IMG/VR virus record: IMGVR_UViG_3300037424_000199 | Coordinates: 1 to 60,175 of that record | DNA length: 60,175 nt | Origin: a virus | Lineage: Duplodnaviria > Caudoviricetes | Reading direction: 5' to 3' (one strand) | Part shown: one piece after another, positions 1 to 60,175 of the stretch | Layout: each line of letters opens with the position of its first letter | Position numbering within the stretch: position 1 is the first letter of the stretch | Made by a program: the position numbers and the translations under genes | The notes under the pieces: model-generated | Told to the model about the DNA's origin: nothing | The model's input: only the letters and a program-made list of their open reading frames with translations | Database searches by the model: none

Positions 1-127
1 GACCGCCAGAGATACCAGCCTTTGCAGCGATATCCTTCTGTTGCCATCCAAGATCAAGCAAACGCTTAAACACCTTGGCTTGCTCCAGTGAAGTAAGCTG
101 CTTACCGCTATTATGAACAATCTGGCT
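1..127. repeat. Terminal direct repeat, copy 1 (identical to 60049-60175); circular-assembly overlap
   Basis: gaccgccagagatacc...gaacaatctggct occurs at both ends and cuts through a continuous ORF. Confidence 0.95.
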
Positions 128-9219: not shown

Positions 9220-9450
9220 TACTGTTATACTAGTTTAATGGGGCAAATGAGGCTAAGTGCTTGAAATCTCTAAAAGTATAATAAATATAATATATATAAT
9301 AGATAAATAAATAGGTATATATAGGGGGCTAGGAGGGGGTGCTTCTAACCATTATACTTTATAATCCATTATATTTTGGGTAACTCTTTGAAAGTATTCA
9401 GCTTTTAGCGTTATAATGGCCATTATACTCGCCTTTTTCCATTATACTTT
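9220..9450. promoter_or_regulatory. Putative replication origin
   Basis: Non-coding and very AT-rich; CCATTATA(C/T)T repeats at 9349, 9366, 9420 and 9439, inverted AAAGTATAAT at 9273; directly downstream of the primase gene. Confidence 0.6.
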
Positions 9451-9451
9451 C

Positions 9452-11761
9452 CTATTCCAGTATGCTCAAATCACTAACAACAAAGCACCGTTGAGTTGTC
9501 CCGTATTTTTCTTGAGCCCAAATTCTACCAAGCTCTTTAATACGATCGGCATCAACTAAGTTTTGAATTGCACGCTTAATAGCAAATGTAGCTTGAGCTT
9601 TATCATTACGAAATGCAGCAGCAGCAACCAAACGACGCTGAATATAGACATAAGGAATAACCTTATCTATATGTAAATTTTGAAACTTAGAATATTTATC
9701 AGCCTTACTATCACTATATGATTTAGTAATATAATCTTTAATAACTCTAATAATCTCATGAGCTTGTTTAACCTCAAACGAATTGCTACCAATCTCACCA
9801 GCCTCAAACCGCTCAGTCAAAGCAGCAATATCAGCTTGAACTAATTGAGCACTCCAATTCATATGCTCAGCATTAATTGTGGGCTCAATCATATTTTCCC
9901 CCACAGCAAGCAATGCTGATAACTTCAAAACCTTAATGTGCGCTCTATTCCAAAGTTGTCTAATAACTTCCTTGTTTGAATTATTAATACGACTGTCAGC
10001 ATACTTATCAAAATCATACAAAAGTTTAGCAGCGTCAGGAGTAGCTTGCACATTGATAACACGACGCGGATTAGAATGATTGACTGTCTCACACTGCGCG
10101 GCTAATGCCGCTAATCTTTCAATAAGATGAAATGAAGGTTCAACTTCAGTATGTCTTTCATTGAGTGGCGGACGATTGCCTTTGTATTCAACTAAAAGAA
10201 AACGAGGCAACAAACCCTCGCTAATCATATCCTCATTTAATGCGCCGTAAAAACGCTCAGGAGTACTTTCGCCCAAAATAGAGAAACTAGGACTTGGTAC
10301 AGCAGAAGTATTATTGGCTTTGTCTGAATATACGCTTGCGTGTAATATCTCTGAATAACCGGACTTATTATATAGATCAAGAAACATACGACGCAAACTA
10401 ACTTCGCTACCATTGGCATTAGGGCTGCTCATTTGTTGTAACCTCAATCCAAATTCACCTAATAGGCTGATGAATGATTGAGATTGATTGCCAAGATATT
10501 TAAATAGTGCTGATCCTGATGATATTTCTGATGGCCCAATAAAGCCAGAAGATGTAGGCACCTGAAACTTAATCTTACCCATCAGCTTATTAATACCTGA
10601 TGCGGCCGCTTCCTTACCTGCACCAGTCATAGCCAATAGCAATACATATTGGTTTAGTCCTGTACCAGATATGTTGTAAGCTCTGCCGCATATCCCAGCC
10701 ATTAATGCAATAGCAGCAGACAATGCTACCTCAGGCACAGGACGCGGCGCAGCTTGATAGATGAATGATGCAATATCACCTAATAGGCCCGGTGGGGTGG
10801 TAGGAGTGGCAGGATTTGAACCTACATCTAAGCCGTTATGAGCGACTGGCTCTAACCGTTGAGCTACACTCCCGTTTAACTTAACTTCAGCTAATTTAAT
10901 CTCAATACCGTTCTTTAATCCATCAAAATCCAATGGAGGAAGCATACGGTCAAAGGACCGTGAAATCATTCCATTTACATAATCTTTACGTTTAGCTTTA
11001 TCTCTCCTGCCAAGTTGTGAGCTAATAAATATTCTTGCAATTTGAGTTTTGTTTTGCGTGTAGAAGCTGATAATATCAATAATGGCAAAGTCTGCTTCGG
11101 ATTGTGATGAATAGCTATCTTGCCAGCTACCACTATAAAGGAGCTTAAATCTATCTCCGTTGACTGCTTCAGTTGCTCTTTTAATAATTTCTTCATCTGT
11201 ATCTTTCTCCTTATCAGTTCCATTGTACATTGACTGAGCAACAGGACCACTACCCATCTGTTCCCATAGCTGAGTTAACTGTGATTGACAATCAATAATA
11301 GCATTTCTACCCTGATATACGTTACCAGTCATGGTAGCATATCTATCGTGTGGGTAAATCTCTATCTTGCTCCTACGCCTTCCAGCAGGAACCTTACCCT
11401 TACAAATTAAGTGTAAGCCTTTACCAGAAGGGCTAACTTCAGCATAGGTTTCAAATTCATGATATACTTTTAAATGACGCTGTAATGTTGCATCATCGCC
11501 TTCAGCATCATCTAAATCTATAAATGAATAAGGATCACTGTTGCTAAACACAAACCCAATGCCAGAATAGCTATTAGCAAACTTGTGTACATCATCAAAC
11601 GTAGACCAAGTGGCAGGTTCTGTAACATTAGCTAATTTTCCATTAGGTTGATATGGAACCTTAGTAGGCTTAGCGGCTCCAATATCTTCATATTTCCATA
11701 GTACCCATTGTTTCAATAGGCGCAATTCGGCTGGGATATTCTGATAGAGTGATGCTGGCAT
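9452..11761 (-). CDS. Primase-polymerase (NrS-1-like AEP + helix bundle) fused to a DUF3987-like helicase/ATPase domain
   Basis: WVLW...KVPY, GIGFVF, FIDLDD, EVSPSGKGLH, IEIY...RYATMTG, SQSEADFA; C-terminal P-loop AMTGAGKE. Confidence 0.85.
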   Translation of the reverse strand: MPASLYQNIPAELRLLKQWVLWKYEDIGAAKPTKVPYQPNGKLANVTEPATWSTFDDVHKFANSYSGIGFVFSNSDPYSFIDLDDAEGDDATLQRHLKVYHEFETYAEVSPSGKGLHLICKGKVPAGRRRSKIEIYPHDRYATMTGNVYQGRNAIIDCQSQLTQLWEQMGSGPVAQSMYNGTDKEKDTDEEIIKRATEAVNGDRFKLLYSGSWQDSYSSQSEADFAIIDIISFYTQNKTQIARIFISSQLGRRDKAKRKDYVNGMISRSFDRMLPPLDFDGLKNGIEIKLAEVKLNGSVAQRLEPVAHNGLDVGSNPATPTTPPGLLGDIASFIYQAAPRPVPEVALSAAIALMAGICGRAYNISGTGLNQYVLLLAMTGAGKEAAASGINKLMGKIKFQVPTSSGFIGPSEISSGSALFKYLGNQSQSFISLLGEFGLRLQQMSSPNANGSEVSLRRMFLDLYNKSGYSEILHASVYSDKANNTSAVPSPSFSILGESTPERFYGALNEDMISEGLLPRFLLVEYKGNRPPLNERHTEVEPSFHLIERLAALAAQCETVNHSNPRRVINVQATPDAAKLLYDFDKYADSRINNSNKEVIRQLWNRAHIKVLKLSALLAVGENMIEPTINAEHMNWSAQLVQADIAALTERFEAGEIGSNSFEVKQAHEIIRVIKDYITKSYSDSKADKYSKFQNLHIDKVIPYVYIQRRLVAAAAFRNDKAQATFAIKRAIQNLVDADRIKELGRIWAQEKYGTTQRCFVVSDLSILE
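10798..10873 (-). tRNA. tRNA with CAU anticodon (probably tRNA-Ile2), embedded in the primase ORF
   Basis: GGGAGTG TA GCTC AACGGTTA GAGC C AGTCG CTCATAA CGGCT TAGAT GTAGG TTCAAAT CCTGC CACTCCT A CCA: 76-nt cloverleaf with encoded CCA. Confidence 0.88.
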
Positions 11762-11767
11762 GTGATA

Positions 11768-11953
11768 TTAATTATTTTCTAATTCAGCTTCGAGTTTAGC
11801 CAGAGCTAAACAAACCACATCAGTTAACGAAACATTTACAGGCTTATTTTTAGCCCTAAGAATGCTATGGAGCTTATGTAATAATATAGCTCCATCACCT
11901 GTTAAGCTGATGTTTGAACGGCGATCTTTAGAATTTTGTGGAAATTGTGTCAT
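11768..11953 (-). CDS. Small putative transcription regulator (ribbon-helix-helix-like)
   Basis: 61 aa, beta-alpha-alpha pattern; first gene of the leftward unit at the divergent promoter. Confidence 0.5.
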   Translation of the reverse strand: MTQFPQNSKDRRSNISLTGDGAILLHKLHSILRAKNKPVNVSLTDVVCLALAKLEAELENN

Positions 11954-56044: not shown

Positions 56045-56074
56045 AAAAAAGCCTCCCCGTCAAGGGAGGCTTTC
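56045..56074 (-). terminator. Rho-independent terminator at the early/late boundary
   Basis: gcctccc-ttgacg-gggaggc followed by TTTTTT on the minus strand. Confidence 0.75.
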
Positions 56075-56178
56075 AACCCGGTGCTTTACCAATTGGGAGC
56101 CGGACCAATCTATAGCAAGGGTACATCCGCCCTGCTTCTATGAGGCAATACCTAATGCTTAAAATTGTTCCTGTCAAG

Positions 56179-56266
56179 TGGTGCGCTCTGCCGGGATCGA
56201 ACCGGCATAGTCATTACAACCGAGAGATTTTAAGTCTCTTGTGTCTACCAGTTCCACCAAGAGCGC
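56179..56266 (-). tRNA. tRNA-Leu (UAA)
   Basis: GCGCTCT TGGTGGAACTGGTAGACAC AAGAGAC TTAAAA TCTCT, long variable arm, GCCGG TTCGATC CCGGC AGAGCGC ACCA; 88 nt. Confidence 0.92.
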
Positions 56267-56270
56267 AGAA

Positions 56271-56656
56271 TTAGTTAGACTTAGCTTTATTAGCTAAAAT
56301 TTGTTCGATCTGATTTATTGTAGATTGCCCACCATTTATAAAAGATTTAAAATCATTGATGGTCATACTAAATTTATCACTATTAATCAATTCACCATTA
56401 AGCATACAGCGTAAATCAATAAATATTAATTCGTTATTGGATGCAGTTATCGTCATATTTATGTATTTCATTTTTTAACCTCAAACACTTCACCAGTATT
56501 AGAACTGATGCAAAAGAAACCAATACCTTTAGAAGTTTCTGCTATTTTTAACGCAGCAGCTTTACAAGCCAATTCATTGTTCATGGGTATCTGATGCATT
56601 TTAATATCAGCAGTAAATGTACCTGTTATAGCTACAATAAGCAATGTCCAAGTCAT
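56271..56656 (-). other. Two hypothetical genes (56271-56471, 56468-56656)
   Basis: Overlapping ORFs. Confidence 0.55.
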
Positions 56657-59671: not shown

Positions 59672-60175
59672 TCAATAATCAATCTTCTCCATCAATTCAG
59701 CCCAATCAGCTTCGCTAAAGCTAATAGTAACCAAAGCTTCAGTATCGTCAACTTGCTCATTAGCGTAGGCAGTCGCAACGAGTTCCTTCAGGTACGCCTT
59801 CAAGGACTGCCCCTTAGGCGCCCTAGCGGAGCCCTCTGAGCCGCCTTCCGTATCCTTGGGCATCGCACGCTTGCGGCCACTCTCCTGAGCCACCTTGACC
59901 GCGCCATTGAGTTCTAGAATGGTTTCGTCAACGTTCTGCTTATGCTTTTTGTAGAGATTGAGCACCATGCTAGCCGACGCCTTGCCTTCAATGATATACT
60001 TTTGAAGGATAGCAGGCAAGATCAGCAGTTCAAGCAACTGGCTAACACGACCGCCAGAGATACCAGCCTTTGCAGCGATATCCTTCTGTTGCCATCCAAG
60101 ATCAAGCAAACGCTTAAACACCTTGGCTTGCTCCAGTGAAGTAAGCTGCTTACCGCTATTATGAACAATCTGGCT
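59672..60175 (-). CDS. ParB-like protein, 3' part (HTH and C-terminus)
   Basis: LGWQQKDIAAKAGISGGRVSQLLELL HTH; continues from 448..1. Confidence 0.85.
   Translation of the reverse strand, partial: SQIVHNSGKQLTSLEQAKVFKRLLDLGWQQKDIAAKAGISGGRVSQLLELLILPAILQKYIIEGKASASMVLNLYKKHKQNVDETILELNGAVKVAQESGRKRAMPKDTEGGSEGSARAPKGQSLKAYLKELVATAYANEQVDDTEALVTISFSEADWAELMEKIDY
60049..60175. repeat. Terminal direct repeat, copy 2
   Basis: Identical to 1-127. Confidence 0.95.

What the first reader, a model, noticed from the sequence alone, without database searches (positions are those of the whole stretch)
10798..10873. Complete tRNA(CAU) nested on the same strand inside the open primase-helicase reading frame
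Seen: a 76-nt cloverleaf with all four stems intact (acceptor GGGAGTG/CACTCCT, D GCTC/GAGC, anticodon AGTCG/CGGCT with loop CTCATAA, T GTAGG/CCTGC) and encoded CCA. It is read through without stops as GSVAQRLEPVAHNGLDVGSNPATPT, in the linker between the primase/helix-bundle and helicase domains. The anticodon arm resembles tRNA-Ile2, which reads AUA after TilS lysidination and would suit an AT-rich phage. Inference: this is dual-use sequence. RNase P and 3' processing would cut the mRNA between the two domains, coupling tRNA supply to primase level or leaving a non-stop primase-only message. It could instead be a recent capture that kept the frame open.
Basis: partly seen in the sequence, partly recalled or inferred. 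Interest (0 to 1): 0.85.

Follow-up and report, generated by a model that had tools for sequence, protein, structure and literature searches.

The report
tRNA genes inside a phage primase gene
A complete tRNA gene lies in frame inside the flexible linker of a phage's primase-helicase gene, and dozens of related uncultured phages carry one to three tRNAs at the same spot, so one stretch of DNA appears to serve as both protein linker and tRNA gene.

Summary
A 76-nt tRNA(CAU) with encoded CCA lies at 10798..10873 on the minus strand (ARAGORN; Rfam 61.1 bits against a cut-off of 29). It starts at codon 297, in phase, of a 769-aa prim-pol/helicase ORF (9452..11761, minus).

It is not a one-off or a recent capture. 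In 31 related contigs, all uncultured phages, the same linker holds tRNA(CAU), tRNA-Gln(UUG) or both in either order, and once Gln-CAU-Arg(UCU).

- **Phase:** all 44 distinct embedded copies sit in a stop-free phase: 27 of 27 CAU in phase 0, 16 of 16 Gln in phase 2, and the one Arg in phase 0.
- **Spacers:** all 10 distinct spacer lengths between the CAU and Gln tRNAs keep the frame.
- **Cloverleaf:** it covaries strongly (CAU 99.5% of cells paired, 13 of 21 pairs with double changes; Gln 97.6%, 17 of 21).
- **Control:** the same tRNA type outside primases is spanned by open frames of only 26-104 codons.
- **Linker:** AlphaFold gives pLDDT below 50 and coil there.
- **Turnover:** cassettes are swapped between lineages (at least 12 changes on a 35-protein tree).

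Both the tRNA and the read-through protein are therefore under selection. Release of the tRNA from the primase transcript by RNase P is inferred, not shown. The isotype leans to tRNA-Ile2. Six full-text searches found no description of this.

The parts
10798..10873 (-). tRNA(CAU) gene, 76 nt with encoded CCA. Spans codons 297-321 plus the first base of codon 322 of the primase-helicase ORF. Named tRNA-Met by anticodon, more likely tRNA-Ile2.
   Evidence: ARAGORN. Rfam 61.1 bits. Own model R1 101 bits. Covariation across 19 distinct homologous copies.
9452..11761 (-). Primase-helicase ORF, 769 aa (P0001), read through the tRNA.
   Evidence: ORF list and translation. phrog_3022 'DNA primase' E 8e-234, end to end. 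PF22763 25.5 bits, under its cut-off of 27.9. Precomputed PF22763 + PF13148. 51% identity to the phage 73 primase.
10895..11761 (-). N-terminal part (residues 1-289): prim-pol domain and NrS-1-type helix bundle.
   Evidence: AlphaFold block pLDDT mostly 82-93 up to residue 270, with a dip at 171-180.
10790..10894 (-). Inter-domain linker (residues 290-324), low confidence and coil. Holds the tRNA. Variable in length and sequence among homologues.
   Evidence: pLDDT below 50 for 290-320, no secondary structure 294-324. Alignments.
9452..10789 (-). C-terminal helicase part (residues 325-769, PF13148/DUF3987-type) and stop codon. Begins with the conserved PPGLLGxIA directly after the tRNA.
56179..56266 (-). 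Second tRNA of the phage, tRNA-Leu(UAA), in an ordinary intergenic position between small ORFs. Context for the phage's tRNA set.
   Evidence: ARAGORN. Rfam 54.7 bits. ORF list.

Best explanation
The stretch is a working tRNA gene embedded in frame, on the coding strand, in the disordered linker between the prim-pol and helicase domains of the phage's replicative primase-helicase. The same DNA is used twice. Ribosomes read through it and it becomes about 25 residues of flexible linker. Transcripts, or their decay intermediates, that fold into the cloverleaf are cut by host RNase P at the 5' end and trimmed to the encoded CCA, which releases the tRNA and destroys that mRNA copy. The linker tolerates almost any sequence, so it acts as a docking site for tRNA cassettes (CAU, Gln-UUG, Arg-UCU). 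These cassettes are exchanged among related phages by recombination through the conserved flanks, and only in-frame, stop-free arrangements survive. The tRNAs most likely supply decoders for A-ending codons (AUA if the CAU tRNA is Ile2, plus CAA and AGA) that this AT-rich phage uses heavily. SHOWN: the tRNA is real and under selection for its structure. The reading frame through it is under selection. The linker is disordered and variable. The cassettes turn over. INFERRED: maturation by RNase P and 3' trimming, the either/or fate of each transcript, the codon-supply role and the Ile2 identity.
For: (1) Real tRNA.
(2) Selection on the RNA. 19 distinct CAU copies have 99.5% of cells paired, 13 of 21 pairs with changes on both sides and 0 of 500 shuffles as high; slid controls give 30-50% paired. 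10 Gln copies have 97.6% paired, 17 of 21 pairs and 0 of 500. CCA is invariant in 22 of 22 and 10 of 10 rows.
(3) Selection on the frame. In 39 fetched loci (31 contigs) there are 44 distinct embedded copies. 27 of 27 CAU start in codon phase 0, 16 of 16 Gln in phase 2 and 1 of 1 Arg in phase 0. Phase 0 is the only stop-free phase in 19 of 19 CAU copies, and phase 2 is stop-free in 10 of 10 Gln copies. CAU-to-Gln spacers of 1, 4, 7, 19, 25 and 34 nt are all 1 mod 3. Gln-to-CAU spacers of -1, 2, 5 and 29 nt are all 2 mod 3.
(4) Control. A tRNA-anchored scan found 21 viral contigs. In 12 the tRNA lies in a primase homologue, with open frames of 423-855 codons. In 9 it does not, and the open frame through it is 26-104 codons. 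Over all 28 non-embedded tRNA copies the median is 56 and the maximum 197 codons.
(5) No stop before and no usable start after. The conserved PPGLLG motif follows the tRNA directly. The first in-frame ATG/GTG/TTG is GTG at codon 342, inside a conserved motif.
(6) Homologues are single polypeptides with an unalignable linker at this place.
(7) AlphaFold gives pLDDT below 50 and coil at 290-320 between confident domains.
(8) Cassette turnover. The 35-protein tree needs at least 12 changes of architecture. Flanks are conserved around swapped cores. L040/L056 share 93.5% gene identity but 71% tRNA identity, and L014/L040 share 56% gene identity but 93% tRNA identity.
(9) Codon logic. The window has GC3 0.31, ATA at 22% of Ile codons (14.3 per 1000), CAA at 58% of Gln and TTA at 36% of Leu. 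The embedded anticodons CAU, UUG and UCU and the intergenic UAA all fit A-ending codons.
(10) No promoter-like site above chance between the ORF start and the tRNA, so the tRNA is most simply made from the primase transcript.
Against: No RNA or protein data exist. No RNA run holds this phage, so neither the mature tRNA nor the full-length protein has been seen. Covariation could partly reflect repeated import of already functional tRNA alleles by recombination rather than selection in place, though that still needs selection to keep them intact. A complete relative (G003, the genome of L015) has no tRNA at all, and 11 full-length relatives have tRNA-less linkers, so the tRNAs are dispensable. 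One tRNA-bearing locus (L056) has its primase frame broken about 350 nt downstream of the tRNA. Ribosomes closely following the polymerase might keep the cloverleaf from forming, so the yield of tRNA is unknown. The isotype is not settled. The tree was a 'quick' search with SH-aLRT support only.
Confidence: 0.75

Rival explanations
1. The tRNA serves mainly as a processing signal. Its chief role is to make RNase P cut the primase-helicase mRNA between the two domains, which sets the level of the full-length enzyme or yields a primase-only product. The released tRNA is a by-product.
For: Position exactly at the domain boundary. One to three tRNAs there would give graded cutting. No internal promoter.
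Against: A mere cleavage signal would not need an anticodon, yet the anticodon loops and the CAU, UUG and UCU anticodons are kept. 11 full-length relatives and the cultured relatives do without any tRNA there. No stop codon ends the upstream half and no start opens the downstream half, so the cut halves would give a non-stop message and an untranslatable one.
Confidence: 0.1
2. Inert relic. The tRNA was captured into the linker and is kept only as linker peptide. It is not matured or used.
For: The linker accepts unrelated sequence of similar length. The tRNAs are dispensable.
Against: A relic under protein-only constraint in a disordered linker would lose pairing. Instead 99.5% and 97.6% of stem cells pair, with many compensatory double changes. 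tRNA-less linkers show no decayed remnant at E up to 10 with models R1 and R2 or with Rfam at E up to 1.
Confidence: 0.07
3. Recombination or attachment site. The tRNA sequence is an attP-like target for integration into a host tRNA gene, as in elements whose attP lies inside a gene.
For: tRNA genes are common integration targets (general knowledge, recalled). The closest cellular look-alikes are nearly as good matches to model R1 as the phage copies.
Against: No tyrosine or serine recombinase in the complete genome (PF00589 and PF00239: 0 matches). Three different tRNAs in either order occupy the site. The copies are full length, diverged and covarying rather than identical to one host gene. 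No relative was found in bacterial genomes, though with narrow patterns.
Confidence: 0.03
4. Two genes, not one. Primase and helicase are separate genes with intergenic tRNAs, and the open frame is an accident or an assembly error.
For: Gene callers can run through tRNAs. A 25-codon stretch is open by chance fairly often.
Against: 44 of 44 distinct copies are in a permissive phase and all 10 distinct CAU/Gln spacer lengths are in the required class. There is no stop or start signal at the junctions. Homologues are fused. A separate assembly agrees.
Confidence: 0.03

Closest known systems
Ordinary phage-encoded tRNA genes and tRNA clusters (as in T4- and T5-like phages; recalled knowledge). The window's own tRNA-Leu(UAA) and the clusters in L121, L127 and L131 are examples.
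   Same: Complete tRNAs with encoded CCA, carried by an AT-rich phage, with anticodons for A-ending codons. The same CAU tRNA type occurs in such clusters.
   Different: Those lie between genes, where the open frame through them is 26-104 codons. Here the tRNAs are nested in phase inside an essential replication gene and are translated as linker.
Bacterial tRNAs co-transcribed with mRNAs and released by RNase P and RNase E
   Same: One transcript yields both tRNA and mRNA. Processing affects the fate of the mRNA.
   Different: There the tRNA lies outside the coding sequence, so both products can come from one molecule. Here release of the tRNA cuts the coding sequence.
Mitochondrial tRNA punctuation and tRNA genes that overlap protein genes in compact mitochondrial genomes (Doublet et al. 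2015, RNA Biol 12:1159; seen only as a reference-list entry in PMC6122833; the paper itself is not held).
   Same: tRNA and protein-coding sequence share the same bases on the same strand. Alternative processing must decide which product a transcript gives.
   Different: That is an organelle with extreme compaction and reduced tRNAs. Here the genome is a phage's, the cloverleaves are canonical, the nesting is complete and in frame within a linker, and the cassettes turn over.
Inteins and self-splicing introns in phage replication genes (recalled knowledge).
   Same: Foreign elements that sit inside essential replication genes without destroying them, with patchy distribution among relatives.
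   Different: No splicing is involved. Removing 76 nt, or 73 nt, would shift the frame. No intron family matched in Rfam. The inserted sequence is simply translated.
Pseudomonas phage 73 / Septimatrevirus primase-helicase (phrog_3022).
   Same: Same protein family and domain order, 51% identity, variable linker at the same place.
   Different: No tRNA in the linker of phage 73 or PSV3. The tRNA-bearing clade has no cultured member in the phage collection: best 51.4% protein identity and no DNA match.

Membership tests
tRNA (Rfam RF00005) | Score above the family's gathering threshold over the full model | tested here: met
   61.1 bits against 29, model positions 1-71 of 71. ARAGORN also calls it.
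tRNA (Rfam RF00005) | Cloverleaf kept by compensatory change among homologues | tested here: met
   99.5% of cells paired, 13 of 21 pairs with double changes, 0 of 500 shuffles as high.
tRNA (Rfam RF00005) | A mature, aminoacylated RNA is produced | not testable with these tools
   No RNA run listed for this phage.
tRNA-Ile2 (CAU anticodon, lysidine-dependent, reads AUA) | CAU anticodon without initiator features | tested here: met
   Anticodon CAT. Positions 1:72 pair as G-U, G-C or A-U, and the anticodon stem is not three G-C pairs. The initiator features themselves are recalled knowledge.
tRNA-Ile2 (CAU anticodon, lysidine-dependent, reads AUA) | Body closer to known Ile2 than to elongator Met | tested here: inconclusive
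   Model R1 scores the two E. coli genes annotated tRNA-Ile with anticodon CAT at 85.5 and 83.8 bits, against 72.6 for the annotated tRNA-Met genes. The phage copies are on average 81% identical to a 76-nt CAU tRNA of two Alphaproteobacteria. That tRNA is 78-80% identical to E. coli Ile2 and 70% to E. coli Met. Direct identity of the phage copies to E. coli Ile2 against Met is only 72.6-72.9% against 70.6%. No isotype-specific classifier was available.
tRNA-Ile2 (CAU anticodon, lysidine-dependent, reads AUA) | Lysidine at position 34 made by TilS, charging by IleRS | not testable with these tools
   Needs mass spectrometry of the RNA or charging assays.
Prim-pol/helicase of phrog_3022 (PF22763 helix bundle + PF13148 helicase part) | End-to-end match to the family profile and its domain order | tested here: met
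   phrog_3022 E 8e-234, residues 6-760 on profile positions 6-785 of 788. PF22763 25.5 bits, just under its cut-off of 27.9. Precomputed PF22763 + PF13148. 51% identity to the phage 73 primase.
attP / integration module | A recombinase gene in the element | tested here: not met
   PF00589 and PF00239: 0 matches in the complete 60,175-nt genome, and the controls ring in 14 and 12 of 14 genomes.
Self-splicing intron or intein | A splicing RNA or protein fold, and removal that restores the frame | tested here: not met
   No intron family in Rfam. 76 nt is not a multiple of 3. The peptide is 25 residues of coil.

The most novel reading that the evidence does not exclude
The primase linker is a dedicated docking site where each transcript is partitioned between translation and tRNA maturation, forming a feedback loop. 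When decoders for AUA, CAA or AGA are short, ribosomes lag, the cloverleaves fold and RNase P turns primase mRNA into exactly those tRNAs. When the decoders are plentiful, ribosomes cover the site and the message gives primase-helicase. The start of replication would thus be tied to the cell's capacity to translate the AT-rich phage genome. The cassettes would be a mobile, exchangeable module shared within a phage clade through the conserved flanks.
Probability: 0.2. Interest if true: 0.9.

Novelty: new variant of a known kind. Interest (0 to 1): 0.82.

Why it matters
Phage tRNA genes and overlapping genes are each familiar. A canonical tRNA gene that is also translated, in frame, as part of an essential protein is not something my six full-text searches found described, and here it is kept so across dozens of genomes with up to three tRNAs in a row.

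It gives a natural system in which translation and RNase P processing compete for the same RNA. That competition can be tested directly with a cloned gene.

It shows that disordered linkers can act as landing pads for non-coding RNA genes.

It also bears on annotation. Pipelines that mask tRNAs before calling genes will split such proteins, and pipelines that do not will hide the tRNAs. The protein database already holds 16 such primases called straight through the tRNA; the one that carries a source name is called 'hypothetical protein'.

Tried and rejected
RNA evidence: the look-up of sequencing runs listed no RNA holder, so expression could not be examined.

Read laying could use only Logan contigs of one DNA run that may be the source sample. 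That speaks to assembly only.

Decayed tRNA remnants in tRNA-less linkers: I had suspected them from the protein alignment (L026, L022/24/28, L040/46). None were found with models R1 and R2 at E up to 10 or with Rfam at E up to 1. The DNA alignments instead show replacement by unrelated sequence.

Prophage relatives in bacterial genomes: none found. The two patterns used were narrow, so this is weak.

Internal promoter for the tRNA: promoter-like sites were at chance level, 10 found against 9.6 expected.

Close cultured relatives: no DNA match in the phage collection.

tRNA against the phage collection: mostly Staphylococcus phage tRNAs labelled tRNA-Met by their depositors, covering 76% of the query. 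This was not informative for isotype.

A search for other protein families that carry the tRNA-encoded peptide (region 290-329) returned 16 hits, all primases. Only proteins of 422-1346 aa that share exact words were candidates.

Literature: searches gave listings and abstract starts only. Passages read in PMC9671010 and PMC4324244 were irrelevant. Supplements were not consulted.

My first motif-based extraction of linkers missed most loci and was replaced by an alignment.
Full report
**1. The observation**

The window is a complete virus record of 60,175 nt with a 127-nt exact terminal repeat. ARAGORN finds two tRNAs. One, with anticodon CAT, lies at exactly 10798..10873 on the minus strand. 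Rfam's tRNA model scores it 61.1 bits (gathering 29, E 8.3e-11) over its full length. With 30-nt flanks the minimum-energy fold is the cloverleaf.

The tRNA lies inside ORF 9452..11761 (minus strand, 769 aa, P0001). Its first base is the first base of codon 297.

**2. The host gene**

P0001 matches phrog_3022 ('DNA primase') from end to end (E 8e-234). It also matches the NrS-1-type helix bundle PF22763, at 25.5 bits, just under that family's cut-off. The protein database lists PF22763 and PF13148 for it.

In the phage collection 526 records hold a homologue, all below 60% identity. The best are Pseudomonas phage 73-like viruses (Septimatrevirus) at about 51%, and there is no DNA-level match. 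Against the phage 73 primase the alignment is collinear, except for a stretch between the helix bundle and the conserved PPGL[LV]GEIA motif. There the two proteins cannot be aligned. That is where the tRNA lies.

- Phage 73 and PSV3 have no tRNA there.
- An AlphaFold model built on a 27-sequence alignment (mean pLDDT 79.6) has pLDDT below 50 for residues 290-320 and no secondary structure for 294-324. This stretch lies between two confidently folded halves.
- The genome has no tyrosine or serine recombinase.
- The primase sits in a replication module with Sak4, a Cas4-type exonuclease, a helicase, a clamp-like factor and a DNA polymerase.

**3. Relatives**

I scanned IMG/VR and the metagenome contigs with the protein and with a two-sequence alignment. 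ARAGORN was then run on 45 of the fetched loci, those that could cover the linker, and in a script on all of them.

| Linker content | Loci |
|---|---|
| tRNA(CAU) alone | window, L009, L011, L022, L024, L028, L038-L041, L046, L053, L056 |
| CAU then Gln(UUG) | L004, L017, L043, L051 |
| Gln then CAU | L014, L029-L032, L042 |
| no tRNA | L012, L013, L015, L026, L027, L033-L035, L037, L045, L060 |

A second search was anchored on the tRNA and not on the protein. It found 21 viral contigs:
- In 12 the tRNA lies in a primase homologue. Seven of these are new contigs.
- One of the new contigs (L126) has Gln, CAU and Arg(UCU) in a row inside an 850-aa ORF. All three pass Rfam's threshold.
- In the other 9 the same tRNA type lies in ordinary contexts, often tRNA clusters.

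**4. Both readings are under selection**

*RNA.* The 22 CAU copies (19 distinct) pair in 99.5% of stem cells. 13 of 21 pairs show changes on both sides, no shuffle of 500 reaches these values, and slid controls give 30-50% pairing. The 10 Gln copies give 97.6%, 17 of 21 pairs and 0 of 500. The CCA end is invariant.

*Frame.* Counting copies as distinct by the tRNA plus 60-nt flanks gives 44 embedded copies in 39 fetched loci. That is 31 contigs once the same contig fetched twice is removed.
- 27 of 27 CAU copies start in codon phase 0, 16 of 16 Gln copies in phase 2, and the one Arg copy in phase 0.
- Phase 0 is the only stop-free phase of all 19 distinct CAU sequences examined. Phase 2 is stop-free in all 10 Gln sequences.
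- Spacers from CAU to Gln are 1, 4, 7, 19, 25 and 34 nt, all 1 mod 3. Spacers from Gln to CAU are -1, 2, 5 and 29 nt, all 2 mod 3. These are exactly the classes the frame needs.
- As a control, the 28 distinct tRNA copies in the fetched loci that are not in a primase are spanned by open frames with a median of 56 codons and a maximum of 197. Five have no open phase.
- No stop codon precedes the tRNA. The conserved PPGLLG motif follows it at once. The first in-frame ATG/GTG/TTG downstream is a GTG at codon 342, inside a conserved motif. So the helicase half cannot be made on its own.
- One exception to a fully intact gene is L056. Its frame breaks about 350 nt downstream of the tRNA.

**5. Turnover**

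I built a tree of 35 primases with the linker columns removed (quick IQ-TREE, SH-aLRT support only). The four architectures on this tree (the Gln-CAU-Arg locus L126 was not on it) need at least 12 changes, and presence or absence needs at least 8.
- Sister pairs differ cleanly. L009 (CAU) and L026 (none) share their flanks, but the core is replaced by unrelated sequence of similar length.
- L031 (Gln-CAU) and L053 differ in that the Gln cassette is replaced by about 310 nt of unrelated sequence.
- tRNA identity and gene identity disagree. L040 and L056 share 93.5% of the gene but 71% of the tRNA. L014 and L040 share 56% of the gene but 93% of the tRNA.
- No decayed remnants are detectable in tRNA-less linkers.
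- Complete relatives carry further tRNAs elsewhere in the genome. One complete relative without a linker tRNA has none at all.

The linker therefore behaves as an exchange site for cassettes. The flanking conserved coding sequence probably serves as the homology arms. That last point is inference.

**6. Which tRNA, and what for**

ARAGORN names the tRNA by its anticodon only.
- A covariance model of the phage copies (R1) scores the two E. coli genes that RefSeq annotates as tRNA-Ile and that have anticodon CAT at 85.5 and 83.8 bits. The annotated elongator tRNA-Met genes score 72.6 (alignment).
- The core pattern of the tRNA occurs in at least 120 bacterial genome contigs. Of the 80 listed, 69 are named as Alphaproteobacteria or members of that class by my reading of the titles.
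- In a Methylobacterium and a Bradyrhizobium genome two 76-nt CAU tRNAs score 96-99 bits, as high as the phage copies, and the next hit scores 72.
- In the Methylobacterium this type has the same 5' acceptor strand as the genome's tRNA-Ile(GAU). It is 78-80% identical to E. coli Ile2 and 70% to E. coli Met.
- Direct identity of the phage copies to E. coli Ile2 against Met differs by only about 2 points.

I therefore favour Ile2 at roughly 70%, unproven.

The window's coding sequence has GC3 0.31. ATA makes up 22% of Ile codons, CAA 58% of Gln and TTA 36% of Leu. The embedded anticodons (CAU if Ile2, UUG, UCU) and the intergenic UAA all decode A-ending codons. From general knowledge these are scarce in GC-rich bacteria such as those that hold the nearest tRNA look-alikes. 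The host itself is not known.

**7. Mechanism**

*Shown.* It is a real tRNA that is structurally constrained. The reading frame through it is constrained too. The linker is disordered and variable, and cassettes are exchanged.

*Inferred.* No promoter-like site above chance lies between the ORF start and the tRNA, so the tRNA is most simply made from the primase transcript. RNase P would then cut at 10873, and 3' trimming would stop at the encoded CCA at 10798. Each transcript would give either protein or tRNA.

The cut would leave an upstream half without a stop codon and a downstream half without a start. That judgement rests on general knowledge. Whether the arrangement regulates anything, or is only a tolerated parking place, cannot be told from sequence.

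**8. Comparison and novelty**

The nearest known things are listed here:
- ordinary intergenic phage tRNAs
- bacterial tRNA-mRNA co-transcripts
- tRNA genes that overlap protein genes in compact mitochondrial genomes (Doublet et al. 2015, seen only as a reference entry)
- inteins and introns in phage replication genes

None combines complete in-frame nesting of canonical tRNAs in a protein linker with conservation across a clade. Six full-text searches found no description. This does not prove that none exists, and supplements were closed. I rate it a new variant of a known kind and of high interest.

Noticed in passing
L126:10250-10479 (ORF 9321..11873): Three tRNAs in a row, Gln(UUG), CAU and Arg(UCU), with 2-nt spacers, all inside one open 850-aa primase ORF. 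This is the largest cassette array seen.
   Followed up: partly
L042:1623-1771: tRNA-Gln and tRNA(CAU) overlap by one base. The last A of the Gln CCA is base 1 of the next tRNA. The frame is still kept.
   Followed up: no
L053:about 2400-2715: In place of the tRNA-Gln cassette of its close relatives, the linker holds about 310 nt of unrelated sequence (over 100 extra residues, low complexity). No Rfam family matches it at E up to 1.
   Followed up: partly
window 56179..56266 (-): The phage's second tRNA, Leu(UAA), lies in an ordinary gap between two small minus-strand ORFs (56073..56177 and 56271..56471).
   Followed up: partly
window 1..127 and 60049..60175: Exact 127-nt direct terminal repeat, as expected for a circular or circularly permuted genome closed by the assembler.
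   Followed up: yes
L045:2979-3022: A relative with a tRNA-less linker has the 5' part of a tRNA (33.6 bits with R1, cut by the contig end) about 560 nt downstream of its primase gene. So tRNAs also occur just outside the gene.
   Followed up: no
L123:2532-2919: ARAGORN calls a permuted tmRNA (tag peptide ANDNSPIEMRLAA) on a viral contig that also holds the same CAU tRNA type and a tRNA-Arg(UCU).
   Followed up: no
window 10798..10873; alignment A4 columns 1 and 72: The first acceptor pair is G-U in 10 of 19 distinct copies, including the window's. Position 72 is a third codon position of a Pro codon, so the protein reading does not choose between T and C there.
   Followed up: no
L013 and L056: In these two relatives the primase frame is broken, with open frames of 449 codons each although the protein match goes on. 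These may be frameshifts, assembly errors or decaying genes.
   Followed up: no
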